A stretch of 64,000 bases of DNA from Anaerolineales bacterium (GTDB taxonomy: Bacteria > Chloroflexota > Anaerolineae > Anaerolineales > E44-bin32). This document shows, in pieces, positions 26,887 to 48,717 of this stretch (position 1 is the first letter of the stretch; each line of letters begins with the position of its first letter). The stretch spans positions 11,991 to 75,990 of the forward strand of contig JARGGH010000009.1 in NCBI GenBank assembly GCA_029210945.1, in the 5' to 3' direction. A program made the translations under genes and the position numbers. Under the pieces are notes generated by a model. It made no database searches, was not told the DNA's origin, and worked only from the letters and a program-made list of their open reading frames with translations.

Positions 26887-28965
26887 TCAATCCCCCGCAG
26901 CCGCTCTAGATTCGACCGATCGAGGTCTAATGGCGTAGCTTCTTTGCAGCGCAATACATCCGCCAGGCCAGGCCGCGATGATCGCACCCACCGCCAGGAG
27001 CAGACCGCCAATCCAGGTCCAGTTGATGAGCGGGTTGATATAGACTTTGAAGGTGGACGAGTCCATGCCGATCTCTTCCCAACCGACGAGCAGGACGTAC
27101 ACATCCTCTTTGAAGGAACTATAAACTCCAGGAATCGTGACCGGTTGACGTTGGACGACAAAGTAATCCCGTCGTGGGGAAAGCACTTTGACAAACTCAT
27201 CCCCGTTGAAGAGTGAAACCGAGGCTTCCAGAACTTCACGGCCGTCCTCTCCCATGTATTGAGAAAGTCCATCGTAGCGCAGCTTATAACCCTCAATTTG
27301 GATCTGCTCACCAACACTCACAGTCCCCTGTGTTTCAACCTTGAAGAAGGCATCCCCGATAAAGCCCATGCCAATCATGATGACCGCGAGATGGATTAAA
27401 TAGCCTCCGTAGCGACGTCGATCACGGCCGACCAGCCGGCCGATCGCTGTAAAGACACCCTCCCCCCGGGACTTTACACGCGCCCGGACACCCCGCCCGA
27501 TCTCGTAGAGGATTGAAACGACGACGAATGATACGACCCAGAGAGCGAAGAATGAATCCGGATGTTGTCGGTGAGATATCCACCAGGCGCTTGCCACAGT
27601 GATCGAGCCGAGCGCCGGGAAAAGCAACTTGGAATCCAGGGCCCGGAGGGGCTGTTTCCGCCAGGCGATGAAAGGGGCTATCGCCATGAGAATGACCAGG
27701 GCTGCAAAGAGAGGGCCGGTCACGCGTGTATAGAACGGTGGCCCGACGGTTATTCTCGTCCCTGTTATCAATTCCGAGATCATCGGGAACACCGTGCCCC
27801 AGAATACTGCAAAGGTGATCGAAAGGAAGAGAACATTTTGTAGCAGGAAGATGGATTCCCTCGAAAGCAAGCTTTCTACCTCGTGCTCTGCCCTGAGAGT
27901 CCCCATCCGCCGGAACAGCAGAGACAGTGACCAGATGAAAGTCAGGCCGATAAAGGCAAAGAAGACTGGGCCCAGCGCAGACTTCGCGAAGGAATGTACC
28001 GAGCTGATCACCCCTGTTCGAGTGATGAACGTGCCGAAAAGTATCAAGGCATAGGTGAGGATGATCAGGATCATATTCCAGATTTTCAACATCCCCCGCT
28101 TCTCCTGGATCATCACAGAGTGCAGGAAAGCCGTGCCGGTTAGCCACGGCATGAGCATCGCATTCTCTACCGGATCCCATCCCCAGAAACCACCCCACCC
28201 CAGCACATCGTACGCCCAGCGCCCGCCCAGAACGAGCCCAATGCTGAGAAACGACCATGCCACGATCGTCCAGCGGCGCGTGGCGCGAATCCAGGCATCT
28301 TCATTGGATTTCCCGGTGATCAGCGCGGCCATAGCGAAGGCATAGGGGATCACAAAACCCGTGAACCCGATATAGGTTGTGGGAGGGTGACCAATCATGC
28401 CGAAATGACGGAGCAGCGGGTTAAGCCCCTGACCATCCTTCGGAATGTAGGGCATCGCCCCGGTGGATCTGAAGAAAGCACGTGTCAGTTCTTCAGCGCC
28501 GGGAACGTGCCAGAGCCGATCGAAGGGGTTTGAAATGAAGAGTGAAAGACCAATAAAAAACACAGTCGTGCCCAATGCAACCGCCAGCACATAGGGCATC
28601 AATTCCCGGTTTTGTTCCCATTTACGGATCACCAGTGCAGCAACGAAGCCAGACATCAACCAGCCCCAGAAGAGGATCGACCCGGCCTGACCGCCCCAGA
28701 GAGCCGTCAGTCTAAGGAAAGGGGACATCGATCGGCTCGTGACATCGGCGACATAGGCCAATGAAAAATCCATCTTCACTAAGCTGTAGGTCAGAGTGAG
28801 CACGGAGACCGTGAGCAGGGCGAATGTGAGCAGTGCTCCATTTCTGCCGCTCACGACAAGCTGGTGTCGACCCTCGTCACCGCCGCGGAAGGCAGCGATC
28901 GTCGAATAGGCTGACACGATGAAGGCAAGCACTAACGCGATCCAGCCAATTTCTGCCAGCATCAA
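26887..28965 (-). CDS. ccmF: cytochrome c-type biogenesis heme lyase CcmF/NrfE family
   Basis: 692-aa polytopic protein with the Trp-rich motif WGGFWGWDPVENAMLMPWL and the C-terminal periplasmic region typical of CcmF. Confidence 0.92.
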   Translation of the reverse strand: MMLAEIGWIALVLAFIVSAYSTIAAFRGGDEGRHQLVVSGRNGALLTFALLTVSVLTLTYSLVKMDFSLAYVADVTSRSMSPFLRLTALWGGQAGSILFWGWLMSGFVAALVIRKWEQNRELMPYVLAVALGTTVFFIGLSLFISNPFDRLWHVPGAEELTRAFFRSTGAMPYIPKDGQGLNPLLRHFGMIGHPPTTYIGFTGFVIPYAFAMAALITGKSNEDAWIRATRRWTIVAWSFLSIGLVLGGRWAYDVLGWGGFWGWDPVENAMLMPWLTGTAFLHSVMIQEKRGMLKIWNMILIILTYALILFGTFITRTGVISSVHSFAKSALGPVFFAFIGLTFIWSLSLLFRRMGTLRAEHEVESLLSRESIFLLQNVLFLSITFAVFWGTVFPMISELITGTRITVGPPFYTRVTGPLFAALVILMAIAPFIAWRKQPLRALDSKLLFPALGSITVASAWWISHRQHPDSFFALWVVSFVVVSILYEIGRGVRARVKSRGEGVFTAIGRLVGRDRRRYGGYLIHLAVIMIGMGFIGDAFFKVETQGTVSVGEQIQIEGYKLRYDGLSQYMGEDGREVLEASVSLFNGDEFVKVLSPRRDYFVVQRQPVTIPGVYSSFKEDVYVLLVGWEEIGMDSSTFKVYINPLINWTWIGGLLLAVGAIIAAWPGGCIALQRSYAIRPRSVESRAAAGD

Positions 28966-29208: not shown

Positions 29209-29750
29209 GGGTAGAATTCCAACGCCTCCTTTAGTGCGATTGGGGCAACAGAGGATTCCGCCGCCAACCAGACCAGATACGGGCCGGCGATGAAGTAATA
29301 ATGTCGCTGTCCCATACCTTCCAATTCATATACCGACCGGCCTTCGATCATCCGCTCTCCAAGTGGGGTGAAGGGTGAATTTCCGTCGGAGATGGCTTCG
29401 TTCATCGCCAGCGTCATTCGCCGGGCCATCCATCCAATCCCAGTACCTGCTGTCCAGATTTGAATCTCAGCGGACATCCCATACGAGCCCACAGCTGCTG
29501 AGGTGAGCGGAAAGTCTGATCCGTGCAATCGTGCGATCTCAGCGACAGCCTGGGTTCCGTAGCGCGAGACCTGAAGCTGCCGTCCGGCAAGGCTGGCCGG
29601 CAGCGGCGCCTCGCGCGGCGCGGACAGGATCTGCATATAACGCCCGGCCACTCCGCCAAGTACAATGACGGCAACGCCGACTGCCAGAAGCGTGAGAGGC
29701 AGCAACCGTCTCGCGCGTACATTCGGGGACATCCTGCTGCTCCTACGCAA
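29205..29750 (-). CDS. hypothetical membrane-anchored exported protein
   Basis: Signal anchor LLPLTLLAVGVAVIVLGGV and a soluble domain of unrecognised family. It overlaps both neighbours by 4-8 nt. Confidence 0.5.
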   Translation of the reverse strand: MRRSSRMSPNVRARRLLPLTLLAVGVAVIVLGGVAGRYMQILSAPREAPLPASLAGRQLQVSRYGTQAVAEIARLHGSDFPLTSAAVGSYGMSAEIQIWTAGTGIGWMARRMTLAMNEAISDGNSPFTPLGERMIEGRSVYELEGMGQRHYYFIAGPYLVWLAAESSVAPIALKEALEFYP

Positions 29751-30999
29751 TCACCCAGACCAGCATACCCGCCCCGAGCGCAACCATGGCCAGCCCATAC
29801 CACAGTCGGATCCTCCGGGCATTTTCCCGCTCCCAGCGCGCCCAGCGCTTGGCAACCAGACGGTTGCCTGCGGCGAGCAGGATCACGACGAGGGGCAGGA
29901 CGAAGAGCACGTTGTAAAGTGCAAGATAGCTGACACCCCAGGCTAATGTTGTCCTGGCGTTCAGCAGCGTGATGATCGACACATACACCCCTCCCGAGCA
30001 CGGGAAGGTGCACAAGCCTACGAGCAGCCCCGCTCCAATCGTCGCCGGCAAGGTCGCCTGTTTCAGAAGCTCGTTGGTTTTCTGTCCGGCGATCATCGGC
30101 ATGTGCAGCTTGATCGGAAACTCCGGGAAGAAATATTCGATCAGATTAATGACCCCAAGCGAGATGAGAATCCAGCTGCCTGCTCGGGCGACAAAATGCG
30201 GGTCGTTTGAGAAGCGCACCGCCTGCAAGATCCCGAGACCAATCGCAAAGTACACGATGAAGATCATCCCGATGTAGACAAAACCGAGCTTCAGAATATG
30301 CCGGCGGGACTTGCGAATGGTGAAGAGAAATGCGAGCAGCAGCAGGATCACCGCGAAGGCGCAGGGGTTAACTGAGTCCAGGAGCCCTGTTACGATCACC
30401 GCCGGTAGGAGTTCGCCGAGATTGGCAAGCCCAACGGGCAGGGGCCCCGATGACGCCATCGCGGCGGGAAGCGCCTCCTCAAACGGGGTTGTGATGTCGA
30501 ACGTCATGACGTCGCCGGTCCACGCCCACAGCCGGTATTCCGTCGGCTCGCCGTGCATCTCGGGTTGCCAGACCACCAGGCGCGCTGGCCGATCCGGATA
30601 TTCGAGCACAGCCTGGATCAGATCCGGGGGCACATGGCCGAGGATGACGAGATCGCCTCCATCTGAGGGGACAAAGGCATACAATGAATCGGCGATCGAC
30701 CGGGGCAACTCGATCCCATCCGCCATCTCGCGCAACCGTTTGCGTTCTTCGGGAACGGTGTAGTCATGGATCTCAAAGGGCGCCTCCACTCCCCCGGTTT
30801 GCAAAGCTGGAAGCATGACATCTTCAACGTAGGGCCAGCAATCAACACAGCCCGCGCTGAAGAAGATGTGCACGACCTCAGCCTCGTCGCTTCCAGCGGA
30901 GGCGTCCGACCAGGGCGTGAAGAGCAATCCAAGCGCGGCCAGGAGAGCCAACAGAAGCAAGCCTGATCGCAGAGCTATTGAATTTCTGTTATTTGCCAC
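29743..30999 (-). CDS. DsbD_2/CcdA-superfamily membrane protein fused to an N-terminal DUF411(CopG)-like CxxC domain
   Basis: The membrane half has LDSVNPCAFAV and GLCTFPCSGGVY (Cys-in-helix pair of DsbD_2-type proteins). The N-terminal exported domain is VVHIFFSAGCVDCWPYVED...GIELPRSIADSLYAFVPSDGGDLVILGHVPPDLIQAVLEYPDRP. This parallels the DUF411 layout (Cys motif ... GIP..L..CHT....GY.VEGHVP...I..LL). Confidence 0.7.
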   Translation of the reverse strand: MANNRNSIALRSGLLLLALLAALGLLFTPWSDASAGSDEAEVVHIFFSAGCVDCWPYVEDVMLPALQTGGVEAPFEIHDYTVPEERKRLREMADGIELPRSIADSLYAFVPSDGGDLVILGHVPPDLIQAVLEYPDRPARLVVWQPEMHGEPTEYRLWAWTGDVMTFDITTPFEEALPAAMASSGPLPVGLANLGELLPAVIVTGLLDSVNPCAFAVILLLLAFLFTIRKSRRHILKLGFVYIGMIFIVYFAIGLGILQAVRFSNDPHFVARAGSWILISLGVINLIEYFFPEFPIKLHMPMIAGQKTNELLKQATLPATIGAGLLVGLCTFPCSGGVYVSIITLLNARTTLAWGVSYLALYNVLFVLPLVVILLAAGNRLVAKRWARWERENARRIRLWYGLAMVALGAGMLVWVIA

Positions 31000-36901: not shown

Positions 36902-37513
36902 ATGGCAACCTTAACAACGCGTGCAGGTTCAATCATTCAGAACCCGCCTTTTGTGCAGAAACTGTTGAACGATAAACGTTCGACATGGCTCTGGCTTCTC
37001 CCACGATTGTGGCTGGGCTACAAGTGGATCGACGCCGCACTCCACAAGGTGGGTAACCCTGCCTGGGTATCAGGCGGCGAAGCGCTCAAAGGATACTGGC
37101 TGGGCGCGATTGCGATCCCTGAAGCCGGGCGGCCGGCAATCGCATTCGACTGGGATCGTTCATTCCTCCAGATACTGCTCGATGCACAAACCTATACATG
37201 GTTTGCGAAGCTCGTGGCGTATGGCGAACTGCTCGTTGGCATTGCGCTGATCCTGGGTACCTTTACCGGAATCGCGGCTTTCTTCGGCGCTCTTATGAAC
37301 TGGAATTTCATGCTGGCCGGATCAGCAAGCACGAATCCTGTGCTCTTTATCGTAGCAGTTGGCCTGATTCTCGCCTGGAAGGTCTCCGGGTATATCGGCG
37401 CAGACTACTTCCTGCTTCCCTGGATCGGCACGCCTTGGACACCTGGGGCGTCAACTTCTCAAAGTGTTCGTACTCTCGAACCGTCACCCGTGAGGGTAAC
37501 TGTTGATGAGTGA
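36902..37513 (+). CDS. DoxX/DoxD-like membrane protein
   Basis: WLWLLPRLWLGYKWIDAALHK...FAKLVAYGELLVGIALILGTFTGIAAFFGALMNWNFMLAG. ATG at 36902 after GGAGG. The longer track ORF from 36668 was rejected. Confidence 0.75.
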   Translation: MATLTTRAGSIIQNPPFVQKLLNDKRSTWLWLLPRLWLGYKWIDAALHKVGNPAWVSGGEALKGYWLGAIAIPEAGRPAIAFDWDRSFLQILLDAQTYTWFAKLVAYGELLVGIALILGTFTGIAAFFGALMNWNFMLAGSASTNPVLFIVAVGLILAWKVSGYIGADYFLLPWIGTPWTPGASTSQSVRTLEPSPVRVTVDE

Positions 37514-37607
37514 TTGGAATAGTTAAAGGCTTGATGGATAAGTATCTCGGGGGGTTAGGATGGTGGGACCCTAATCCCCCGATACTGCTAACAACGGAAA
37601 GGTTGAG

Positions 37608-37838
37608 ATGGGGAAAGCAATAGACCCGGTTTGCGGCATGGATGTAGATCTCTCAAGGGCAATCTGGAAGAAGGACGTGGGCACTCGCACGTTTTATTTC
37701 TGTAGCCGGGTTTGCAGGCATACCTTCCTGGAAAATCTTGATGAAATGATTTTCTTGGAGTCTATGAAAGTCGCCAAACCTAGATCTCGGTCCGGGCCGG
37801 TTTCCAATGAAACCGCTAAGGAAGGATACGAATCATGA
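37608..37838 (+). CDS. YHS/TRASH domain protein
   Basis: IDPVCGMDVDLSRA...FYFCSRVCRHTFLEN. Confidence 0.85.
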   Translation: MGKAIDPVCGMDVDLSRAIWKKDVGTRTFYFCSRVCRHTFLENLDEMIFLESMKVAKPRSRSGPVSNETAKEGYES

Positions 37839-38134
37839 AGAATTGTCATGTTGAGACAATGAACAAACAAATCACGCCGGAGGAACGCGAGAATCTGACT
37901 GGCGCGACGCTTGAGATTATGGGCATGGGCTGTGGCAATTGCGCAAATCGAGTCCGAAACAGCCTGCTTCAGCTGCATGGCGTGGTTGCTGCGCAGGTTG
38001 ACCACATCTCTGGCCTTGGGCTAGTGCAATTTAATCCAACCATGGTATCCCCTCGACAGCTCACTCAGGCTGTCTCGGCCGCGGGCGGTGATGGTAAACA
38101 TGAATATGCCGCCAGGCTCCTTTCGAGAGCCTGA
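37835..38134 (+). CDS. heavy-metal-associated (HMA) domain protein, CopZ-like
   Basis: LEIMGMGCGNCANRVRNSLLQLHGVVAAQVD. The ATG overlaps the TGA of the YHS gene (ATGA). Confidence 0.8.
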   Translation: MKNCHVETMNKQITPEERENLTGATLEIMGMGCGNCANRVRNSLLQLHGVVAAQVDHISGLGLVQFNPTMVSPRQLTQAVSAAGGDGKHEYAARLLSRA

Positions 38135-38140
38135 CAGGCA

Positions 38141-38181
38141 CCCACCGGCGGGCCGCTCGGTTGCCCGGGCAAAGCGGTGGG
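38141..38181 (+). terminator. compound GC-rich hairpin after the HMA gene (no U tract)
   Basis: CCCACCG (38141-38147) pairs with CGGTGGG (38175-38181), with an inner CGGGC/GCCCG stem. Confidence 0.35.
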
Positions 38182-38289
38182 TAGAAGCTAGGACTCCTGG
38201 ACATTGTTCTCGAAAACCGGATATGTACATTTTGTGATCCGCTGGAGCTCCCCCCTTTAAATAACTACTCGAAAACGATGAGGTGACGT

Positions 38290-39114
38290 ATGGCTTTTCA
38301 TCTTGGTCCTCTGACAATCCGCATTTATGGTGTCATCATCATGCTTGGCGCACTCGCGGGAGCATTCCTGGCACAGCGCCTTGCCCAAAAGCAGGGCGAG
38401 AATCCCGAACTTGTCTGGGACGGCCTGATCTGGGTGCTTCTCGGCGGGATCCTGGGTGCCCGCATCTGGCATATTCTCACCCCACCCCCTTCGATGGTTG
38501 AGCGTGGGATAACGACAGCATATTACCTGTCCCATCCGCTCGATGCGCTCGCCATTTGGAAGGGTGGTCTGGGAATCCCTGGGGCTGTTGTCGGCGGCGT
38601 GATCGCCTTATTTCTTTTCTCCAGAAGGCAGAAACTTCCCTTCTTAACCTGGTTGGATATCTCCGCCCCAGCACTCGCTTTAGGCCAGGCTATTGGGCGT
38701 TGGGGAAATTTTGTCAACCAGGAACTGTATGGCGCTCCAACCGACCTGCCGTGGGCGATCTTCATCGAGCCGCGCTTTCGGCTTCCGGAGTTCATCGACC
38801 AAGGGTTCTACCATCCATTGTTCTTATACGAATCCCTATGGAATCTTGCGAACGTGGTCCTGCTCATTTGGTTGGGCAGGCGCTTTTCAAAGCAGCTCCG
38901 TACGGGGGATATCTTCCTCGTCTACCTCGTCGTATATCCCGTGGGACGGTTCTTGCTCGAATTTCTCCGTTTGGATGCCTCCCAGGTTGCCGGGCTGAAT
39001 ATCAATCAGACCCTTATGGCTTTTGTAGGTACGTTCGCGCTCCTGGCCTTCATTCTGCGGCGCATTCTCGACAGATCGCGCCAGAAGCGACCAGAGGTTG
39101 TGACCGTTGAGTAA
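38290..39114 (+). CDS. lgt: prolipoprotein diacylglyceryl transferase
   Basis: IWKGGLGIPGAVVGG, GQAIGRWGNFVNQELYGAPTDLPWAI, and seven hydrophobic helices. Confidence 0.9.
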   Translation: MAFHLGPLTIRIYGVIIMLGALAGAFLAQRLAQKQGENPELVWDGLIWVLLGGILGARIWHILTPPPSMVERGITTAYYLSHPLDALAIWKGGLGIPGAVVGGVIALFLFSRRQKLPFLTWLDISAPALALGQAIGRWGNFVNQELYGAPTDLPWAIFIEPRFRLPEFIDQGFYHPLFLYESLWNLANVVLLIWLGRRFSKQLRTGDIFLVYLVVYPVGRFLLEFLRLDASQVAGLNINQTLMAFVGTFALLAFILRRILDRSRQKRPEVVTVE

Positions 39115-39192
39115 GAAGCAACATACAGGATTCAGGGAAAAGGGTTTCATCAAGCCCCCACGCGAGTACCAGAACATCAAAGCGTTTGTTTG

Positions 39193-39861
39193 ATGCGCAA
39201 CCGCCTATCGCCAGAGGGCAAAGCATCACGATCTGTTCTGCGATGGCTTGGGTTCTACGTAGCTGTATTTGCCGGTGTCTTGGTTGGGTGGCGTCTCTTT
39301 CTCTCAGCACCTCCGGACCGTGAACCTGAGCCTACACCGACCAGGGAGGTCGGGCGCCAGGCACCTGCGTTGGAGGTAGATCTCCCCGAGACCGGCAAGA
39401 CTTCACAGAATTTAGGTCAAGCGGTCAGGGTAGGATCCATTGCCCCGGATTTCACGTTGCCCGAACTCGATGGTTCTGAGATAACCCTGAGCGCCCTGCG
39501 CGGGAATGTCGTGTTGATTAACTTCTGGACGACCTGGTGCCCGCCGTGTAGATACGAGATGCCTGCACTCCAGGAAACATACAGGCGGTTCAAAGATGAC
39601 GGATTCATCGTTCTCGCAGTGAATTGGACCCAGCTTGATGAGCGAGAAGCGGTGGCTCCATATGTGCAGGAGCTGGGCTTAAGCTTTCCAATCCTGCTGG
39701 ACGAGAACGGGCAGATTTCAGATAATCTATATAATGTCATCGGCCTTCCAACCAGCATCTTCGTAGATGGGGATGGAGTCGTGCAGGAGATCGTTGTGGG
39801 ACCGCTCTCGCTTGGTGATTTGGACACAAAAGTCCAATCGTTGCTCCAGAGAAATTTATGA
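39193..39861 (+). CDS. TlpA/ResA-type membrane-anchored thioredoxin
   Basis: TM anchor, then VVLINFWTTWCPPCRYEMPAL (WCPPC). Confidence 0.88.
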   Translation: MRNRLSPEGKASRSVLRWLGFYVAVFAGVLVGWRLFLSAPPDREPEPTPTREVGRQAPALEVDLPETGKTSQNLGQAVRVGSIAPDFTLPELDGSEITLSALRGNVVLINFWTTWCPPCRYEMPALQETYRRFKDDGFIVLAVNWTQLDEREAVAPYVQELGLSFPILLDENGQISDNLYNVIGLPTSIFVDGDGVVQEIVVGPLSLGDLDTKVQSLLQRNL

Positions 39862-40628
39862 ATACATCCATTCCGGATTCTGACCGAAAAACCTCCCGCC
39901 TCTCCACGCTGGGACATGCGCTCTTCTTCGTAGGAGGGTTTTCACTGGTTTTCATCCTCGGTTGGGGCGGAGGAGCCACGGTGTTCGGGCAGCTCTTCAG
40001 CCAATACAAGTATGTTCTGGGTCGGATCGGGGGAGTCGTCGTCATCCTCTTCGGATTGGTCACCCTTGGTGTTTTGAAGGTTCCGTGGCTGATGGCGGAT
40101 ACACGCCCTCAGATGAAGCGCTGGGGGTCCAACCAACTGCTCAATTCAGGCCTCTTCGGAATTCTATTCGCAGCGGGTTGGACGCCCTGTGTGGGGGCGA
40201 CGCTCGGTGCAATCCTCACTCTCGGATTCAGCCAGGACACTGCTGGGCAGGCGATGATCCTCTCTTCAGGTTACGCCCTGGGACTGGGTCTTCCGTTTCT
40301 CGGCCTCTCATTGATCCTGGACCGGGCCCTTGGCGTCATCCGGCGATTTCAGCGACATATCCGGACGTTTCAGTGGATCAGCGGTCTGCTCATCATCGCC
40401 ATAGGGGTGCTGATGGTCACCAATCGCATTACCTACATCGCGATTTGGGCGCAGCGAAATGGTTTCTTCCTTGACCTGCCCCTCGGTGGCGCATCTGCAC
40501 CAACCTACCTGGCATCCGTCGCGGCAGGGACGCTGTCATTCCTCAGCCCGTGTGTCCTGCCCCTCGTTCCAGCTTACCTGGGCTACCTGAGCGGTCAGGG
40601 TACTCTAGGTACCATGCAGTCCTCGTAA
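39858..40628 (+). CDS. ccdA: CcdA-type cytochrome c biogenesis thiol-disulfide transporter with permuted helix order
   Basis: ILFAAGWTPCVGATLGAIL (canonical helix-4 motif) lies in the middle. TLSFLSPCVLPLVPAYLGYLSG (canonical helix-1 motif) lies at the extreme C-terminus. The ATG overlaps the TGA of the TlpA gene (ATGA). Confidence 0.85.
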   Translation: MNTSIPDSDRKTSRLSTLGHALFFVGGFSLVFILGWGGGATVFGQLFSQYKYVLGRIGGVVVILFGLVTLGVLKVPWLMADTRPQMKRWGSNQLLNSGLFGILFAAGWTPCVGATLGAILTLGFSQDTAGQAMILSSGYALGLGLPFLGLSLILDRALGVIRRFQRHIRTFQWISGLLIIAIGVLMVTNRITYIAIWAQRNGFFLDLPLGGASAPTYLASVAAGTLSFLSPCVLPLVPAYLGYLSGQGTLGTMQSS

Positions 40629-40719
40629 AGGAGCCCTGGAAAATACCCCGCATAGGGATTGCTTAGATAATCCTGCCCGCCCTGAGTTCGTGTGAGAGAG
40701 TCCGGACATACACGCATAT

Positions 40720-41961
40720 TTGCGCATTGATTCGCAGGAAGCGAGCCGTTATTCTCTCGGCATGCAATGTGATGAAAATGCATCAAGTGCTGAAGATGTG
40801 AAGATCGAGATCGAATCCTATCGAACAATCCTCAACCGTATTCGGTGCTGGCTGTCCCAATTCCTCAATCATCTGTCGGCCAGCAAAGCCGTTCGGAAAC
40901 GAGTCTTAATGGTTGCTGCGTTTGCTGTGTTGGGATCCGTGTTCGCAATCGGCTCACAGACAGGTTGGATTTCCGTTAGAGCGGAAGGGTCCACTCATGA
41001 TGTAGTAGAAGAGCAACAGGCAACAGACCCGGAAGAGCAAAACTTGAACACCACCCTCCTGCCTGCCTTCCAACCAGAGACGAGAGATTTTTCGGGAGTG
41101 CAGAGATCTATTGACATCCACACGGAGATCCCCGATCGTCCCAGGATGGACGTAATTACCTATTCCGTAAGTGTTGGAGACACGATTTTTGGCATCGCTG
41201 ACCGCTTTGGCCTCAAGCCTGAGACTGTTCTCTGGGGAAACTATGATGTTCTGCAAGACGATCCCCATAGTCTCCGGCCCGGCCAGGAGCTCAACATCCT
41301 CCCCGTCGATGGAACTTATTATGTGTGGTCCGAAGGCGACAGACTGGAAGTGGTCGCAGCGTTTTTTGGCGTTGATCCACAGGAGATCATCGATTGGCCA
41401 GGCAACGAGCTCAGCCCGGACATAGATTTCGACAATCCTGAAATCGCTGCCGGGACCGCACTGGTCGTCCCGGATGGCCGCAGAGAGTTCGTCAGCTGGC
41501 AGGCGCCCAGAATCACCCGCAGCAACCCTGCTGTAGCTCGAATTGCAGGACCGGGCGCTTGTGGCTCGATTTACGATGGGCCGGTTGGTGAGGGCTTCTT
41601 CGTCTGGCCAACCACGGCAACATTCCTGTCCGGGAACAATTATTCAAGCTTCCATCCCGGGATTGATATCGCCGGAAGCATGGGCAACGCGATCTTTGCA
41701 TCGGCGAGCGGAGTGGTTGTCTATGCTGGCTGGAACGATTACGGCTATGGATACATGGCGGTCATAGACCATGGCGATGGTTGGCAGACACTCTACGCAC
41801 ATATGAGTCAGGTGAATGTCTCCTGCGGGCAGGGCGTGTTCCAGGGTTCGGTCATCGGTGGCGTGGGGTCATCGGGAAATTCCACTGGCGCGCATCTGCA
41901 CTTCGAGATGCAGAGCGACGTCTATGGCAAGGTTAACCCATATGACTTCGTATCCCCCTAG
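40720..41961 (+). CDS. LysM-domain M23 family metallopeptidase
   Basis: YSVSVGDTIFGIADRFG and YYVWSEGDRLEVVAAFFG (LysM-like). HPGIDIAG...DHGDGWQTLYAHMS...GAHLHFEM (M23). The exact start is uncertain. Confidence 0.85.
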   Translation: MRIDSQEASRYSLGMQCDENASSAEDVKIEIESYRTILNRIRCWLSQFLNHLSASKAVRKRVLMVAAFAVLGSVFAIGSQTGWISVRAEGSTHDVVEEQQATDPEEQNLNTTLLPAFQPETRDFSGVQRSIDIHTEIPDRPRMDVITYSVSVGDTIFGIADRFGLKPETVLWGNYDVLQDDPHSLRPGQELNILPVDGTYYVWSEGDRLEVVAAFFGVDPQEIIDWPGNELSPDIDFDNPEIAAGTALVVPDGRREFVSWQAPRITRSNPAVARIAGPGACGSIYDGPVGEGFFVWPTTATFLSGNNYSSFHPGIDIAGSMGNAIFASASGVVVYAGWNDYGYGYMAVIDHGDGWQTLYAHMSQVNVSCGQGVFQGSVIGGVGSSGNSTGAHLHFEMQSDVYGKVNPYDFVSP

Positions 41962-42047
41962 GAAAGCACAATGCAGTCCAGAATAGTCGACGAGCAATCC
42001 CGTTTTGCCGCCCTCGCGCCGCTCTGATTGACACGCACACGTACGTC

Positions 42048-42290
42048 CTACTCCAAATCCAGCAATTGTTTGAGTTTATCTTTGTCGAAACCCACCACCA
42101 CTTCACCGTCTATCAGGGTGACAGGGATAGTGGAGAAATACCCCAATTCCTCAAGTTCATTAATTGCCTCAGGATCACTCGTTACATCACGATCTTCGTA
42201 TTCAATGCCCTTCTCAGAAAGCCACGCTTTCTCAAGTCCACAGAAGTGTCAGCCGGGTTGAGAATAGACGATTACTTTTGGAGCGTTCAT
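42048..42290 (-). CDS. glutaredoxin-like (NrdH/YruB-type) protein with in-frame TGA at the first active-site Cys; candidate selenoprotein or fresh pseudogene
   Basis: Not in the ORF track. GGAGGG lies 7 nt before the ATG at 42290. Hand translation: MNAPKVIVYSQPG[TGA]HFCGLEKAWLSEKGIEYEDRDVTSDPEAINELEELGYFSTIPVTLIDGEVVVGFDKDKLKQLLDLE, then TAG (42050-42048). The TGA is at 42251-42249. Confidence 0.6.
42210..42246 (-). promoter_or_regulatory. candidate bacterial SECIS-like hairpin just 3' of the in-frame UGA
   Basis: mRNA sense: UGA-CA-CUUCU-GUGGACUUG-AGAAAGC-GUG-GCUUUCU-G-AGAAG. This gives a 5-bp outer stem and a 7-bp inner stem, with the apical loop about 23 nt after the UGA. Drawn by hand, not energy-evaluated. 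Confidence 0.3.
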
Positions 42291-42553: not shown

Positions 42554-43285
42554 TCATGAGGAACCCTGAACATACCGTAAGCGCAAACCAATCAATGCGA
42601 GAATTAAGATCAGCAGGCTGACGATCTGTCCAAGCCTGTAAACGTCGAGAACGATCACGCTGTCCCCCCGAAAAGCCTCCAGGAAAAGTCGTGCGGCAGA
42701 GGCCATGCTCAGCCACAGGAAGAACGTCGTTCCTGAGGGGATCCTGGTTTTCCTCAGCCGCCACAGCGCGAGCAGAATCAGCGCTCCCAACACGATCTCA
42801 TACATCTGGGTTGGGTGGCGCCTGGCGCCCCAGAGCTCGATCGCCCACGGAAGATCGCTCACCGCGCCAAACGCATCGCCGCTAGACAGGTTGGCAAGAC
42901 CGATTGCCACAGCCATGGAGTTGAACGGGATGGCAAGGGCATCCAAAGTCGCCCAGAGAGGCATCGACTTTCGCTGGCCGTAGATGACGGCCGCGATAAC
43001 CGCCGTGAGAATACCTTCAAGCGGCGCGATTGTGGAGGGGTTTAGCGCAAAAAGACTGAGCGGTTCTTGGAGATAGACATCGAGGTAGCGCACAGCATAC
43101 CAGATTCGGGCGCCGAGTATCCCGGCGATCAAACCGAGGAACACCATGTTGTTCAGCTTCGTCGCGGAGACGTTGTGCCGTGGAGCGACGCGATCGATCA
43201 GCCAGGTGGCAACCCAGACCCCGGCGAGCAGGAAGAGGCCGGGAAGTTGAATCGCCAGCGGTCCGAGTTGCAGCAGCGGGAACAT
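42554..43285 (-). CDS. divergent Lgt-like paralogue
   Basis: It shares LGPLAIQLPG, ILGARIWY, DLPWAIELW, RRHPTQMYE and LFLEAFRGD with Lgt. It lacks the GRWGNF-N-E box (reads GLANLSSGDAFG) and the W-GG box. It starts immediately after the TlpA stop. Confidence 0.7.
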   Translation of the reverse strand: MFPLLQLGPLAIQLPGLFLLAGVWVATWLIDRVAPRHNVSATKLNNMVFLGLIAGILGARIWYAVRYLDVYLQEPLSLFALNPSTIAPLEGILTAVIAAVIYGQRKSMPLWATLDALAIPFNSMAVAIGLANLSSGDAFGAVSDLPWAIELWGARRHPTQMYEIVLGALILLALWRLRKTRIPSGTTFFLWLSMASAARLFLEAFRGDSVIVLDVYRLGQIVSLLILILALIGLRLRYVQGSS

Positions 43286-43840
43286 TCAGGAGCCCTCCTC
43301 AAGGATCTCTTCCACGGCCGTTTGAATCGTGGTCTCGCTCATCGGCCCGCCGAAAACAACCTTGCGGATGATGCCATCCCGGTCGACGAAGAAGGTTGAT
43401 GGGAGGGCGCGCAGTTGGTACTGCCTGGATACGCCGCCATCCCTATCCATAGGTATCGGGAAAGTCAACCCATATTCCTGTACGAAAGCCTGTGCGTCAC
43501 GCTCGCTGTCCTGGTATGTAGTGTTTACCGCCAGCACTTCTAAACCCCGATCGCGATTTTTTTCATACACAGCCTGGATGGCAGGCATTTCAGCCCGGCA
43601 AGGCGGGCACCATGAGGCCCAGATGTTAATAAGCACCGCTTGGCCTCGAAGCTCGGAAAGCGTCACCTCGCCTCCGGCCAATGTCCCAAGTGTGAAATCT
43701 GGGGCTGCAAACCCTTCGCGAGGGCTCGGGATCGCTCCACCTGTCGTCGCAGCTACCGGGACAGCGGACATCTGAATCCAGGCAAGCCCGATGATGAGGG
43801 TAAGTGTCAAGACCCCCATCCACCGGTTACGATTCTTCAT
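43286..43840 (-). CDS. TlpA/ResA-type membrane-anchored thioredoxin
   Basis: TM anchor (WMGVLTLTLIIGLAWIQ), then AVLINIWASWCPPCRAEMPAI. ATG at 43840. Confidence 0.88.
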   Translation of the reverse strand: MKNRNRWMGVLTLTLIIGLAWIQMSAVPVAATTGGAIPSPREGFAAPDFTLGTLAGGEVTLSELRGQAVLINIWASWCPPCRAEMPAIQAVYEKNRDRGLEVLAVNTTYQDSERDAQAFVQEYGLTFPIPMDRDGGVSRQYQLRALPSTFFVDRDGIIRKVVFGGPMSETTIQTAVEEILEEGS

Positions 43841-44008
43841 CTGAATGAGTATTTTTTCAATCACACCTTTGGACCTTTGACTGGCCTTGAACCCCATATG
43901 TGGCCTCTCGATAATGAAGTTCAGTGGACCTCTTCTGCTTGTTCAAAGTACCGTGTATGAATTTCAATCTATTAGATCGTCTACACGGGCGAAGACCTCT
44001 ATAAGCGT

Positions 44009-45206: not shown

Positions 45207-46280
45207 TCAATGTTCGATGACCTCGACAATAGTCCCTCCAGGCATGCTCACGGTCACATCTCCGGGGTCATATGGGACGACCGGTTCGAGCCAGCGGAAG
45301 ATCCACTTGGCATCCTCTGGCCTGGCATTAACGCAGCCGCGTGAACGAGGCACGCCGAAATCGTTATGCCAGAATGTGGAATGGATCGCGACTCCATTAC
45401 CCACGAAGAGCGAGGTCCAGCCGACCCCGGGCAGATCCCAGCCCCCACCGGTCGTGCCCCCCACCATGTGGACCGAGATCAACTTGCGCCACACTGGGTG
45501 TGGTCCCGGAGGTGTAGCCCACTCCTCCGAGGGGTTGTCCTCGACATCGAACTTTACGCCTGTCGAGACCCTGCAGTAATAAACTTCACGCTGCCCCTCG
45601 AAACAGGAAAGCGACTGGCGGCCTATGTTCACGATGACACGTTTCTCCTCCGCTTCTGGACGGATCGGTGCGACATCGTCAACGCTGAGGGGCCGAAATC
45701 CAGTTGCGTCCGCCCATAATCGGTCGCCGAACCCGAAACGTTCGTTGATCCGGTAGTACACGTTTCCCTCACCGTCGTCTTTAACCTGGTCAATCCACAC
45801 GACCTGGCTGTAGTAGAGGCGGGGGTTCGCTGTGTTCGCCAACCAGGGCGCCCGTGCCGGGGGATTCTCCAGCGTAACATTCACCCAGGGGATCGTGACT
45901 TCCGCCCATATCCCCTTTCCCAGGGAGCTATCTGGCAAATTGGGTAGTGCCTGATTGGGCTTATTCGCCACAGGTTGGAGCGCAGGCGCATACACATAGC
46001 CCCCGTCCGTCTCGACCCAGCGTTGATTAATACGATAAGGGTGAACGCCGACAACCTCTCGGTACCAGGGTATGACGTCATCCTGAACGAGTGTGCCAGC
46101 CGATGGGCTTTCAACATCCGGGCTCGCTCTTAAGTTGAGCCTGTTTTCAACGACGCGTGCCAAACGCCGGGTTTCCTGAACCTGCAAGTGGCGTGGCAGC
46201 CCTCCAGACGATTCAAGGAGGGTGCCGGCGATTCCGAAAGCATTCAGTTTAAGAAAGTCCCTTCGGGTTATGCGATCCAT
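45207..46280 (-). CDS. L,D-transpeptidase (YkuD) with Tat signal
   Basis: MDRITRRDFLKLNAFGIAG. Catalytic block: AIHSTFWHNDFGVPRSRGCVNARPEDAKWIF. Confidence 0.88.
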   Translation of the reverse strand: MDRITRRDFLKLNAFGIAGTLLESSGGLPRHLQVQETRRLARVVENRLNLRASPDVESPSAGTLVQDDVIPWYREVVGVHPYRINQRWVETDGGYVYAPALQPVANKPNQALPNLPDSSLGKGIWAEVTIPWVNVTLENPPARAPWLANTANPRLYYSQVVWIDQVKDDGEGNVYYRINERFGFGDRLWADATGFRPLSVDDVAPIRPEAEEKRVIVNIGRQSLSCFEGQREVYYCRVSTGVKFDVEDNPSEEWATPPGPHPVWRKLISVHMVGGTTGGGWDLPGVGWTSLFVGNGVAIHSTFWHNDFGVPRSRGCVNARPEDAKWIFRWLEPVVPYDPGDVTVSMPGGTIVEVIEH

Positions 46281-46551
46281 TCAATGCCCGCCAATCACCA
46301 CTATATTCCCGTGTTGGAATAAAAGGATATCAGAGAGCAGCCATGCATTGCATACGCCAAATTGCCCATCAACACTTAACAACAGGTCAGAAAGTCAGGC
46401 TTGAGAATCGAGTCTGGTGGATCATGGAGCGTCAATCGAGATAGGAAAAAATCACCTAAGAAGAATTCCCTTACAGGCTTGGATGTCTTCCGGCAATGGT
46501 TGAAGAACAGGCAAAATTGCGGGTCATTACTCCTCGGCTCTCTCTCCTATA

Positions 46552-47757
46552 ATGATTCAAGATCCTTGGAGTGGGAGAACGAGGCCTGTGGAATCTAAAC
46601 GTTTACAATCTCTAACCGGGCTGGTGGTGAGTTTAGGGCTGGGTATTGCAGCCGCTATTGTTTCCTGGGTCAGCGGATATGCAAACCCAATTAAACAACC
46701 CATTGGGGAGCTGTTGTGCCCCAGGGACTTCATGTTCAGGTTCCCTGCGAAATGCGCATATCCTTCATCAGATGAATATCCCTCGCGGCAAAACTCTTCA
46801 TCGCTTTATTTATACGAGAGCCCACTTCCTCTGGAGCCTAAAGATCCCACACTGCGCTACTTTCCGTTCAATTACCTGCGTGTTGGCAGCAAGAGGGTCG
46901 GCATTTACGAATCACAAGAAGCTGCGAAGCGCGGTGGTGGCGCAGGAAGCAGCACCCCTCCGGGTTTTGTTTATTTGTCCTATCGCGATGGTGCGCGGTA
47001 CGAGGATCAAAACACGGTTGTGTACGCAACTGAGCGCGGCTATGTGCGCGGCGATAACGTTTCACGTCTTTCGCCCTCACCTTTCCAGGGAGTGGCATTC
47101 AAACAAACCCCGGCGCGGCCATTTGGCTGGGTAATTTCTGGGGGAAGTTGTCCTGTTCGCACGCCCGATGGAGAACGCGATGAATCCGCCCCCTGCCTTA
47201 CCCGCTATGAAATCATACAGGTTTACGACCAACGGCACGTGGATGACATCACATGGTACTTGATCGGCCCAAATCGCTGGCTGCCGAAGGAATCCCTATC
47301 CATCGTCGATCCTGATCCATCCAGACCAGAAGGTGTTGAAAGTGACCGCTGGATCTCAGTAAATCTCGAGCAGCAGAACGTCGCAGGTTACGATTCAGGC
47401 GAATTGGTTTACGCCACATTAAGCTCCACGGGGCGAGACGGTACGTGGACACAGCCCGGTGCATTTCAGGTCTGGGCCAGGCTCGAGCGTGACGACATGA
47501 GCGGCGGGGTCGACGAGGGTTATTATGCCCTCGATGACGTTCCTTGGGTGTTGTACTTCGATCAAGCGCGCGCGCTGCACGGGACGTACTGGCACGACCG
47601 CTTCGGAACGCCCCAATCGCGAGGTTGCGTCAATCTCTCCATTGCAGACGCACGCTGGTTCTTCAATTTTGCGCAGGAGGGGAGCTGGGTGTATGTCTGG
47701 GACCCATCTGGAGAAACGCCCACGGATCCTACCCTCTATACGGCCGGGGGTGCCTGA
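46552..47757 (+). CDS. L,D-transpeptidase (YkuD), membrane-anchored
   Basis: ALHGTYWHDRFGTPQSRGCVNLSIADARWFF. The start is probably downstream of 46552, because a TATAAT box overlaps the listed start. Confidence 0.85.
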   Translation: MIQDPWSGRTRPVESKRLQSLTGLVVSLGLGIAAAIVSWVSGYANPIKQPIGELLCPRDFMFRFPAKCAYPSSDEYPSRQNSSSLYLYESPLPLEPKDPTLRYFPFNYLRVGSKRVGIYESQEAAKRGGGAGSSTPPGFVYLSYRDGARYEDQNTVVYATERGYVRGDNVSRLSPSPFQGVAFKQTPARPFGWVISGGSCPVRTPDGERDESAPCLTRYEIIQVYDQRHVDDITWYLIGPNRWLPKESLSIVDPDPSRPEGVESDRWISVNLEQQNVAGYDSGELVYATLSSTGRDGTWTQPGAFQVWARLERDDMSGGVDEGYYALDDVPWVLYFDQARALHGTYWHDRFGTPQSRGCVNLSIADARWFFNFAQEGSWVYVWDPSGETPTDPTLYTAGGA

Positions 47758-47787
47758 TGAAAGGTTTCCTCGAAACTAACGTCAACC

Positions 47788-48717
47788 TTGCATGGAGCGC
47801 CTCGCATTATGGATGATAGGAGGACCGGGGAAGAGCTCTCCATCGTTGAGTTGAAGGCGCTTCTCAAGCGCAAGAAGTTAGAGGCCCAAAGAGAGAGGCT
47901 CCTGCATTTTGAAAAGCAGGGTCGGATTGTACACAATGACTGTTCTAGGCCAGGTTGGAGGTCTTCCGGAGTGACTCCGGAAAGGGATCAGCTGCAAAGC
48001 TATCCTGCTACCGCTCCCGCCGACAGCTCGCGTCTAAGGCATACCGCTGGGCGCATTTTGTCCTTGCTTGAAATATCTGCAGTCCTCTTTTTCGTCTTTA
48101 TCTTCATCAGCGGTATGGTCTCCTTTCGAAAGCTCAATTCGATCTCGCTTACGAACTTCTCGGCGCTTTCAGCCTCACCCACCCCTCTCATCCGCGCCGT
48201 CGTGCTGCCTTCAGGGCATACACCGCCTACGTCGCCAGGTGGTGCCCGCTTCAACGAGGAAGAGATCCCGCAACATCTGCGGCCAGTGGCGCAATCCTAC
48301 GCATCCGTAGCCATCCCGACGCCCGGTCCCGAACAAGCCCGCAGTATCTTCATTCCAGCGCTCTGGGATGTCCCTGCTCCTGTCGTGCAGGGTGACGGAT
48401 GGGAACAGCTCAAGAGAGGCGTCGCCCAGCATCTTGGAACCGCCAACCCGGGCGAAAGAGGCAATCTGGTCCTCTCTGCCCACAACGACATCTACGGTGA
48501 GCTCTTCCGTGATCTTGACCAATTGCAGCCAGGCGATGAGATCCGGGTTTATACGGTGAGTGGGGAGTATCTCTACCGCGTAACGGGGACTCTCATTATC
48601 GAACCCACCGAGGTCTCGGTCATGGATCCTACGGAAAAACCCACCATTACCCTAATATCCTGTTACCCCTATCTGGTCGATACGGAACGAATCATCATCA
48701 CAGGAGATCTGACCTAA
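47788..48717 (+). CDS. sortase family transpeptidase
   Basis: TM anchor, NLVLSAHNDIYGELFRDLDQLQPGDEI (catalytic His), and ITLISCYPY (TL-x-x-C). Confidence 0.8.
   Translation: MHGAPRIMDDRRTGEELSIVELKALLKRKKLEAQRERLLHFEKQGRIVHNDCSRPGWRSSGVTPERDQLQSYPATAPADSSRLRHTAGRILSLLEISAVLFFVFIFISGMVSFRKLNSISLTNFSALSASPTPLIRAVVLPSGHTPPTSPGGARFNEEEIPQHLRPVAQSYASVAIPTPGPEQARSIFIPALWDVPAPVVQGDGWEQLKRGVAQHLGTANPGERGNLVLSAHNDIYGELFRDLDQLQPGDEIRVYTVSGEYLYRVTGTLIIEPTEVSVMDPTEKPTITLISCYPYLVDTERIIITGDLT

What the first reader, a model, noticed from the sequence alone, without database searches (positions are those of the whole stretch)
39858..40628. CcdA with its Cys-bearing first helix moved to the C-terminus (apparent circular permutation)
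In canonical CcdA (from memory of B. subtilis CcdA), helix 1 carries F-L-S-F-x-SPC-x-LP-L-x-P-x-x-L-S-Y and helix 4 carries AAGWTPC-x-GP-x-L. Here the protein starts, with an ATGA overlap on the upstream TlpA gene, at a segment that matches the loop after helix 1 and helix 2 (TLGHALFFVGGFSLVFILGWGG). It continues through helices 3, 4 (ILFAAGWTPCVGATLGAIL), 5 and 6. It then ends with a sixth helix, TYLASVAAGTLSFLSPCVLPLVPAYLGYLSGQGT, that carries the full helix-1 signature. The order is therefore 2-3-4-5-6-1. If canonical CcdA has both termini on the outside face, as I recall, a helix appended after helix 6 would cross in the same direction as the original helix 1. The permutation would then be topologically permissible. 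The usual route to this is tandem duplication followed by loss of both ends. I do not know of a described permuted CcdA or DsbD.
Basis: partly seen in the sequence, partly recalled or inferred. Interest (0 to 1): 0.7.

Follow-up and report, generated by a model that had tools for sequence, protein, structure and literature searches.

The report
Circularly permuted CcdA membrane reductase
This gene encodes a CcdA-type membrane protein that carries reducing power out of the cell, but its first, cysteine-bearing helix has moved to the end of the chain; hundreds of relatives in several bacterial phyla share this order, making it a rare sequence-level natural circular permutation of a multi-helix membrane protein.

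Summary
ORF 39858-40628 (+, 256 aa) overlaps the upstream TlpA/ResA-like gene by ATGA. It matches solved T. thermophilus CcdA (5VKV) in two pieces in swapped order: residues 18-194 match CcdA 40-206 (TM2-TM6), and residues 219-247 match CcdA 7-35 (TM1). Moving the C-terminal helix to the front in silico gives one collinear alignment (110.7 bits, E 7.5e-31).

It is not an assembly artefact. 117 of the 120 best homologues (62-98% identity, independent assemblies) have the same order, as do all 119 listed members of a second family in Trueperaceae/Deinococcota, some on multi-megabase contigs. Dehalococcoidia and Eremiobacterota proteins share it too.

Both active-site cysteines and their motifs are invariant. 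Charge distribution fits the canonical orientation. The two halves still align as a 3+3 repeat in a shifted register.

The protein most likely still passes reducing equivalents from cytoplasmic thioredoxin to the co-translated TlpA-like partner. I found no published description, and databases call these proteins plain "CcdA".

Two points stay open: whether the permutation arose once or several times, and direct structural proof that TM1' sits where TM1 does. Verdict: a real new variant of a known kind, of moderately high interest.

The parts
39190..39861 (+). TlpA/ResA-like membrane-anchored thiol:disulfide oxidoreductase (223 aa). Its active site WCPPC is at codons 116-120 (Cys codons 39538-39540 and 39547-39549). 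It is the predicted extracytoplasmic electron acceptor of the permuted CcdA.
   Evidence: Pfam AhpC-TSA 3.3e-29 and Redoxin 3.5e-25. NCBIfam ResA subfamily 1.7e-37 and TlpA 2.3e-22. The sequence was read.
39858..39861 (+). ATGA stop/start overlap between tlpA and the permuted ccdA, implying translational coupling.
   Evidence: The same 4-bp overlap between a Redoxin gene and a permuted ccdA occurs in a Trueperaceae chromosome (L083/L084) and in L001.
39858..40628 (+). Circularly permuted ccdA, 256 aa, helix order TM2-TM3-TM4-TM5-TM6-TM1'.
39909..39983 (+). TM2 (residues 18-42). It is now the first helix and is predicted to cross from inside to outside, after a K/R-rich N-tail (residues 1-17).
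   Evidence: Alignment to 5VKV residues 40 onward, hydropathy and K+R counts.
40017..40079 (+). TM3 (residues 54-74).
40143..40223 (+). TM4 (residues 96-122) with the motif AAGWTPCVG. Active-site Cys111 is at 40188-40190.
   Evidence: Aligned to the GWTPCIGP motif of 5VKV. G107, W108, P110, C111 and G113 are invariant in 89 sequences.
40251..40319 (+). TM5 (residues 132-154).
40371..40445 (+). TM6 (residues 172-196).
40446..40499 (+). New extracytoplasmic linker (residues 197-214, WAQRNGFFLDLPLGGASA) joining TM6 to the relocated helix. It has no counterpart as a loop in canonical CcdA.
   Evidence: It lies between the two phmmer stretches. AF2 pLDDT is low at 203-206. G202 and P215 are at least 90% conserved across two permuted families.
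40500..40586 (+). TM1' (residues 215-243): the relocated first helix with the motif LSFLSPCVLPLVP. Active-site Cys232 is at 40551-40553. It is predicted to cross from outside to inside and is followed by a 13-residue cytoplasmic tail.
   Evidence: phmmer stretch 219-247 to 5VKV 7-35. G224, S227, S230, P231, C232, V233, L234, P235 and P238 are invariant across 89 sequences. AF2 predicts a broken helix, 217-228 and 236-249. hhalign places C232 over C111.
37608..39114 (+). Same-strand upstream neighbours: a YHS-domain protein (37608-37838), an HMA copper-chaperone-like protein (37835-38134) and Lgt (38290-39114). They may be co-transcribed, and the context recurs in relatives.
   Evidence: Pfam. 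The same genes lie next to the permuted ccdA in L001, L002 and L003. No promoter or terminator signal exceeded the shuffles.

Best explanation
The gene encodes a genuine, conserved, circularly permuted member of the CcdA/DsbD family of membrane thiol-disulfide transporters. All six helices of CcdA are present, but the chain starts in what is normally the cytoplasmic TM1-TM2 loop. It runs through TM2-TM6 and then, via a new outside linker of about 18 residues, ends with the Cys-bearing TM1.

Because canonical CcdA has both termini outside, the appended helix crosses in its original direction and both new termini are cytoplasmic. The protein is still a 3+3 inverted repeat, with the register shifted from Cys-scaffold-scaffold to scaffold-scaffold-Cys.

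Inferred mechanism: Cys111 (TM4) and Cys232 (TM1') form the redox pair. The pair is reduced by cytoplasmic thioredoxin and reoxidised by the membrane-anchored TlpA/ResA-like protein encoded immediately upstream and translationally coupled to it. TlpA then reduces extracytoplasmic targets; these are not identified, and copper-handling proteins or apocytochromes are suggested only by gene context.

Shown here: homology, order, conservation, charge-based topology and gene pairing. Inferred: catalytic activity, the placement of TM1' in the fold, and origin by tandem duplication followed by truncation.
For: Swapped two-piece match to solved CcdA, which becomes a single collinear match of 110.7 bits, E 7.5e-31, after un-permutation. 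Pfam coverage grows from profile positions 35-216 to 7-216.

117 of 120 closest homologues are permuted, with exactly 2 Cys and a Cys-Cys spacing of 121. All 119 listed homologues of the divergent P0191 are permuted; the named ones are Trueperaceae/Deinococcota, on contigs up to 5.8 Mb.

A junction-spanning query finds 65 clusters at 50% identity with E<=1e-10 among 1.84 billion representatives. About 20 full-length and about 40 fragment clusters carry TM6-linker-TM1' at the C-terminus. Named members include Eremiobacterota and Dehalococcoidia.

Both Cys motifs are invariant at 30-98% identity. The positive-inside pattern fits. The halves align with C111 over C232 (hhalign prob 88%, E 3e-6).

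The AF2 model (pLDDT 74) has CcdA 5VKV as its only meaningful PDB match (prob 1.00, TM 0.45-0.50, 201 columns). A TlpA-like gene overlaps by ATGA both here and in Trueperaceae.
Against: There is no biochemical or genetic test. The AF2 models are only moderate (pLDDT 66 and 74), and they show TM2-TM3 as one continuous helix. Foldseek aligns sequentially, so the position of TM1' next to TM4 was not verified.

TlpA adjacency holds in only 4 of 12 permuted loci examined, so the partner is not universal. No duplication intermediates were found. The physiological substrate is unknown.
Confidence: 0.85

Rival explanations
1. Assembly, frameshift or gene-calling artefact: a canonical ccdA whose 5' end was misplaced, or a chimeric join.
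For: The window is of unknown, probably metagenomic, origin, and reads cannot be inspected.
Against: The same order occurs in about 240 listed cluster representatives from four independent data sources, and in chromosome-scale contigs. An in-frame stop lies 13 codons upstream, and the upstream space is filled by a complete TlpA gene. The window holds only one TM1-like segment.
Confidence: 0.01
2. The order did not arise by permutation of a six-helix CcdA. Instead the family arose by independent duplication of a three-helix unit in a different register (scaffold-scaffold-Cys), or by gene fission in which TM1 became a separate gene and later re-fused downstream.
For: The halves align collinearly in the new register. 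No tandem-duplication intermediates were seen.
Against: After un-permutation all six helices align to Thermus CcdA in one piece at 110.7 bits. The core is 32-45% identical to canonical CcdAs from many phyla, which is far closer than the two halves are to each other (19% identity). That points to derivation from a complete CcdA. A fission and re-fusion route cannot be told apart from duplication and truncation with these data.
Confidence: 0.1
3. The permuted chain does not fold as a monomeric CcdA. TM1' inserts into the scaffold of a neighbouring protomer, giving a domain-swapped dimer.
For: The relocated helix is on a flexible linker with low pLDDT. The monomer models are only moderately confident.
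Against: A linker of 18 or more residues is long enough to span the outer face of a six-helix bundle. The Cys-Cys spacing is tightly conserved within each family: 121 in 116 of 119 sequences, and 115-117 in most Trueperaceae-type sequences. Neither point excludes swapping.
Confidence: 0.08
4. The family has changed function, for example to a metal (copper) transporter like other LysE/DsbD-superfamily members, and no longer moves reducing equivalents.
For: Copper-related neighbours recur: YHS, HMA, CopZ, Cu-ATPase, CsoR and multicopper oxidase. The best NCBIfam hits are weak matches to transporters (ArsG, Ni/Co efflux) far below their cutoffs.
Against: Both CcdA redox motifs (WTPCxG and SPCVLP) are invariant. 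A thioredoxin-fold CxxC partner is translationally coupled in two phyla. One permuted locus sits next to a CcmC-like gene. Canonical ccdA loci show TlpA-like neighbours at a similar rate, 38 of 72.
Confidence: 0.05

Closest known systems
CcdA (T. thermophilus PDB 5VKV/2N4X; B. subtilis and R. capsulatus CcdA), the CcdA class of the DsbD superfamily, Pfam PF02683 DsbD_TM
   Same: Six TM helices, two Cys-bearing half-helices with the SPCxxP and TPCxG motifs, a 3+3 inverted repeat and a thioredoxin-fold extracytoplasmic partner gene next door. The match is 35% identity over 201 structural columns and 110.7 bits after un-permutation.
   Different: The helix order is 2-3-4-5-6-1 instead of 1-2-3-4-5-6. 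Both termini are predicted to be cytoplasmic instead of outside. TM1 is tethered to TM6 by a new outside linker instead of to TM2 by the inside loop. In the proposed elevator model, TM1 and TM4 are the mobile pair inside a TM2/3/5/6 scaffold (PMC7329351), so the tether of a mobile element has changed.
DsbD-beta and ScsB-beta (eight-TM members of the same superfamily)
   Same: Homologous Cys-bearing TM1 and TM4, and electron flow from thioredoxin to a periplasmic thioredoxin-like domain (PMC3322552).
   Different: Those proteins add TM7-8 and fused periplasmic alpha and gamma domains while keeping the canonical order. [quoted passage not shown]
Proposed one-helix circular permutation between bacterial CysZ/YihY and mitochondrial ADP/ATP carriers (bioRxiv 10.64898/2026.03.31.715626)
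   Same: A six-TM bundle in which one terminal helix has moved to the other end of the chain.
   Different: That relation is inferred from structure at TM about 0.4-0.5 between different families. Here the permuted and canonical forms belong to the same family and are recognisable by sequence, with hundreds of members on each side.
Engineered circular permutants of helical membrane proteins, e.g. rhodopsin (cited in PMC7162841 and PMC3879442)
   Same: They show that helix order can be permuted without losing fold or function.
   Different: Those are laboratory constructs; this is a natural, widespread lineage. [quoted passage not shown]

Membership tests
CcdA / DsbD_TM (PF02683) | Significant match to the family profile above the curated threshold | tested here: met
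   DsbD_TM scores 33.4 bits against a cutoff of 27.1, E 3.6e-8. phmmer to CcdA 5VKV gives E 6.3e-26.
CcdA / DsbD_TM (PF02683) | Two conserved membrane-embedded cysteines in the TM1-type (SPCxxP) and TM4-type (TPCxG) motifs | tested here: met
   C232 lies in LSFLSPCVLPLVP and C111 in GWTPCVG. Both are invariant in 89 sequences, and nearly all members have exactly 2 Cys.
CcdA / DsbD_TM (PF02683) | Six TM helices forming a 3+3 inverted repeat | tested here: met
   Six hydrophobic segments, AF2 helices, hhalign of the halves at prob 88% with C111 over C232, and alternating K+R loop pattern.
CcdA / DsbD_TM (PF02683) | Collinear helix order TM1 to TM6, with the first Cys helix at the N-terminus and termini outside | tested here: not met
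   The order is TM2-3-4-5-6-1 and the termini are predicted to be cytoplasmic. The protein is therefore a homologue by descent but an architectural variant, not a canonical member.
CcdA / DsbD_TM (PF02683) | Genomic association with an exported thioredoxin-fold CxxC acceptor (ResA/TlpA/CcmG-like) | tested here: met
   The upstream TlpA/ResA-like WCPPC gene overlaps by ATGA. The same pairing occurs in L001, L003 and L083/L084, but not in every permuted locus (4 of 12).
CcdA / DsbD_TM (PF02683) | Thioredoxin-dependent transfer of reducing equivalents across the membrane | not testable with these tools
   This needs complementation or redox-state assays.
CcdA fold (5VKV) | TM1 and TM4 packed centrally with the two Cys within disulfide distance | tested here: inconclusive
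   The AF2 model (pLDDT 74.2) hits 5VKV at TM 0.45-0.50 over 201 columns.
NCBIfam curated CcdA/DsbD/ArsG models | Score above the curated cutoff of any equivalog or subfamily model | tested here: not met
   The best hit is ArsG at 33.9 bits against a cutoff of 200; DsbD PRK00293 scores 8.2 against 330. No curated model captures this architecture.

The most novel reading that the evidence does not exclude
The permutation may have arisen more than once, independently, at the same TM1|TM2 loop in different phyla (Chloroflexota, Deinococcota, Eremiobacterota). That would imply that the Cys-bearing TM1 is an autonomously inserting, mobile 'elevator' helix whose tether to the scaffold is interchangeable, and that starting the chain with an N-in helix is selectively advantageous in these lineages. 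The NJ tree never recovers the permuted proteins as one clade (largest pure clade 9-18 of 32 in 100 bootstraps). An HMM classifier shows only partial affinity of the other permuted groups to the main clade. Against this, the shared TlpA-ATGA-ccdA module and the enriched Pro at Cys-17 fit a single origin.
Probability: 0.3. Interest if true: 0.75.

Novelty: new variant of a known kind. Interest (0 to 1): 0.62.

Why it matters
Natural circular permutations are well documented for soluble proteins. [quoted passage not shown]

Here the permuted and canonical forms belong to one family with a solved structure and are recognisable by sequence. Each form has hundreds of natural members. This offers three things:

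1. A clean natural system for asking how helix order affects membrane insertion and folding. An N-out first helix is replaced by an N-in one, and the proline-rich, weakly hydrophobic half-helix is inserted last.

2. A natural test of the proposed CcdA/DsbD elevator mechanism, because one of the two mobile Cys helices is re-tethered from the inside loop to an outside linker.

3. A practical annotation warning. Profile searches cover only TM2-TM6, so these proteins look like N-terminally truncated CcdAs and could be dismissed as fragments or as lacking the first catalytic cysteine.

Tried and rejected
1. The first AF2 run, with 64 close homologues, gave pLDDT 66 and pTM 0.59. TM2 and TM3 were fused into one helix and Foldseek returned only noise, so I discarded it.

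2. The second AF2 run, with 89 sequences from two families, improved to pLDDT 74 and recovered 5VKV. It still cannot show where TM1' sits.

3. An NJ phylogeny of 32 un-permuted and 49 canonical sequences (234 columns, 100 bootstraps) was star-like and did not resolve one origin from several. The first attempt timed out.

4. An HMM log-odds classifier shifted the other permuted groups towards the main clade (Mann-Whitney p 1.7e-5), but several groups fell within the canonical null. This is suggestive, not decisive.

5. I looked for duplication intermediates (7-TM, 12-TM or other cut points) among the top 150 junction hits and about 240 family members and found none. P0142's long tail looks like frameshift noise, and P0158 is a canonical CcdA-TlpA fusion.

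6. The promoter and terminator scan of 37300-42100 found nothing above the shuffles.

7. The CcdA structure papers and review (PMC5805637, PMC7485265) are not held. Canonical topology was therefore taken from the DsbD domain logic in PMC3322552 and from the charge analysis.

8. The idea that the TlpA pairing is specific to permuted forms was rejected: 38 of 72 canonical loci also have a TlpA-like gene nearby.

Full report
**Observation.** The ORF at 39858-40628 (+) encodes 256 aa. Its ATG overlaps the TGA of the upstream ORF 39190-39861 in an ATGA. The upstream protein is a membrane-anchored AhpC-TSA/Redoxin-fold protein with a WCPPC site, and its best matches are the ResA and TlpA models. An in-frame stop lies 13 codons upstream of the ATG, so the protein cannot be longer at its N-terminus. 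tblastn with the TM1-like segment finds only one copy in the window, at 40485-40625.

**Profile test.** phmmer against all PDB sequences hits only T. thermophilus CcdA (5vkv_A, E 6.3e-26). The match comes as two stretches in swapped order: query 219-247 to CcdA 7-35 (the SPC helix TM1; 27.3 bits) and query 18-194 to CcdA 40-206 (TM2-TM6; 73.4 bits). Pfam DsbD_TM passes its threshold but covers only profile positions 35-216 of 219.

I then moved residues 210-250 to the front and trimmed the new termini. That construct aligns to CcdA 7-206 in one collinear stretch of 110.7 bits, E 7.5e-31, and Pfam coverage becomes 7-216 in one stretch. The join falls exactly in the TM1-TM2 loop: YLGYLSGQGT|SRLSTLGHALFF aligns with YLFYLGG-ARGRPLFNALFF. 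This is what a circular permutation should look like.

**Not an artefact; a family.** Of the 120 best homologues (62-98% identity; JGI, NCBI, ENA, Logan), 117 have the TM4-type motif near residue 109 and the TM1-type motif near 230, with exactly two cysteines. The Cys-Cys spacing is 121 in 116 of 119 sequences.

A query spanning only TM6-linker-TM1' (residues 150-256), run against 1.84 billion representatives, found 65 clusters at E<=1e-10. About 20 full-length and about 40 fragmentary 50%-identity clusters carry the junction in one piece at their C-terminus. Canonical CcdAs match instead in separate pieces, with TM1 at their N-terminus.

In a scan of GTDB species genomes, 8 of the best 80 loci were permuted: Chloroflexota/Anaerolineaceae, Dehalococcoidia, a Trueperaceae MAG and two unnamed MAGs. 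The other 72 were canonical, including several Chloroflexi.

Cluster names add Candidatus Eremiobacteraeota and Dehalococcoidia. A second homologue search, with the divergent P0191 (34% identical to the window protein), returned 119 relatives that are all permuted. The named ones are Trueperaceae or Deinococcota, and some lie on contigs of 3-5.8 Mb. Sources label these proteins 'cytochrome c biogenesis protein CcdA', 'TauE/SafE family' or 'hypothetical'. No NCBIfam model reaches its cutoff.

**Selection on the relocated helix.** Across 89 sequences from the two big families (30-98% identity to the window protein), the invariant columns cluster in TM4 (G107, W108, P110, C111, G113) and in TM1' (G224, S227, S230, P231, C232, V233, L234, P235, P238). 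The relocated helix is the best conserved block of the protein.

**Topology.** In DsbD, periplasmic domains precede TM1 and follow the last helix (PMC3322552), so TM1 runs from outside to inside. CcdA is described as six TM helices in two inverted repeats (PMC7329351). In 64 relatives the mean K+R counts are 2.2 (N-tail), 3.3 (loop 3-4), 5.3 (loop 5-6) and 1.0 (C-tail). The corresponding counts are 1.1 (loop 2-3), 0.0 (loop 4-5) and 0.9 (new linker). The core therefore keeps the canonical orientation. The linker is outside, TM1' crosses from outside to inside as TM1 does, and both termini are cytoplasmic.

**Repeat logic.** hhalign of residues 12-127 against 128-250 (profiles from A2) gives probability 88%, E 3e-6. 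TM3-TM4 aligns to TM6-TM1', and Cys111 sits over Cys232. The protein is thus still two homologous three-helix units, now phased scaffold-scaffold-Cys instead of Cys-scaffold-scaffold.

**Structure.** AF2 with close homologues was poor (pLDDT 66; Foldseek noise). With the two-family alignment it reached pLDDT 74.2 and pTM 0.67, and TM1' was predicted as a broken helix around SPCVLPL. The only meaningful PDB match is CcdA 5VKV (prob 1.00, TM 0.45/0.50, 201 columns, 35% identity).

**Context and function.** On the same strand upstream lie a YHS protein, an HMA protein and Lgt. Downstream is a LysM/M23 peptidase, and on the other strand a second Lgt and a second TlpA. Further upstream are CcmF and a 417-aa protein that fuses a CVDC thioredoxin-like domain to a canonical-order DsbD-like membrane domain. 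L001 has the same synteny plus CcmH, a Cu-ATPase and CsoR. L002 has a rhodanese upstream and multicopper oxidase, CopZ, YHS, Lgt and a Cu-ATPase nearby.

In a complete Trueperaceae chromosome the permuted gene occurs twice. Each copy is preceded by a Redoxin gene overlapping by ATGA, and one copy lies near MsrA. Other permuted loci lack an adjacent TlpA (4 of 12 have one). One sits next to a CcmC-like gene. Canonical loci have TlpA-like neighbours in 38 of 72 cases.

The simplest reading is ordinary CcdA chemistry: thioredoxin, then the Cys111/Cys232 pair, then the co-translated TlpA-like protein, then extracytoplasmic targets. In this lineage the targets may be linked to copper handling or lipoprotein maturation; that last point is inference from context only.

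**Origin.** An NJ tree of un-permuted plus canonical sequences is star-like. The permuted proteins never form one clade (largest pure clade 16 of 32; 9-18 in bootstraps). An HMM classifier places the other permuted groups closer to the main permuted clade than held-out canonical proteins are (mean -20.9 against -49.8 bits, p 1.7e-5), but several groups fall within the null.

Three shared features fit a single origin: the same cut site, the TlpA-ATGA-ccdA module in two phyla, and a Pro at Cys-17 (88% of 279 permuted against 17% of 29 canonical). They do not prove it. No 7-TM or tandem intermediates were seen. The number of origins is unresolved.

**Literature.** Full-text searches for CcdA, DsbD, ScsB or LysE together with permutation terms found nothing relevant. 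[quoted passage not shown] A 2026 preprint proposes a one-helix permutation between CysZ/YihY and the ADP/ATP carrier from structural similarity alone. The library does not cover most subscription journals, so absence of a prior report is not proven.

**Verdict.** The observation and the interpretation are both supported. This is a real, widespread, apparently undescribed circularly permuted variant of CcdA. Its function is probably unchanged, so the interest is structural and evolutionary, plus a mechanistic handle on the elevator model.

Noticed in passing
window 29743-30999 (-), next to CcmF 26887-28965 (-): A 417-aa protein with a signal/anchor, an N-terminal thioredoxin-like domain (CVDC) and a canonical-order DsbD_TM/SfLAP-like membrane domain (NPC in TM1, FPCSGG in TM4). 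The organism therefore has a second, non-permuted DsbD-superfamily transporter beside its System I cytochrome c maturation genes. L001 shows the same synteny.
   Followed up: partly
window 37608-39114 (+) and 42554-43897 (-): Duplicated Lgt (38290-39114 and 42554-43285) and TlpA-like (39190-39861 and 43286-43897) genes flank the permuted ccdA, with small YHS and HMA metal-binding proteins upstream. Relatives sit near a Cu-ATPase, CsoR, CopZ and a multicopper oxidase, which suggests a link between copper handling and envelope thiol redox.
   Followed up: partly
L083 and L084 (Trueperaceae chromosome CP070651.1, 3257278-3270081 and 1921030-1933833): The Redoxin / permuted ccdA / 233-aa (faint Rad52/22-like hit) block is present twice with identical protein sequence, about 1.3 Mb apart. 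This could be a recent segmental duplication or a mobile block.
   Followed up: no
P0158 (461 aa, from the representative search): A canonical-order CcdA fused through two extra TM helices to a C-terminal TlpA-like WCEPC domain. It is a natural CcdA-TlpA fusion and supports the functional pairing.
   Followed up: no
P0170 (360 aa) and P0129 (305 aa): Permuted CcdAs with large insertions. P0170 has about 100 extra hydrophobic residues between TM3 and TM4, and P0129 has a longer N-tail and loop. The permuted scaffold evidently tolerates further elaboration.
   Followed up: no
L006 5027-5767 (+), immediately upstream of its permuted ccdA: A CcmC/CcsA-like protein (contains ...QRIFYFHF...), seen only as a motif in the ORF translation. 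This suggests that in this lineage the permuted CcdA serves cytochrome c maturation.
   Followed up: no
window 40720-41961 (+): A LysM + M23 peptidase gene lies 91 bp downstream of the permuted ccdA on the same strand. L,D-transpeptidase (YkuD) genes and a sortase gene lie further on (45207-48717), so this is a neighbourhood rich in envelope genes.
   Followed up: no
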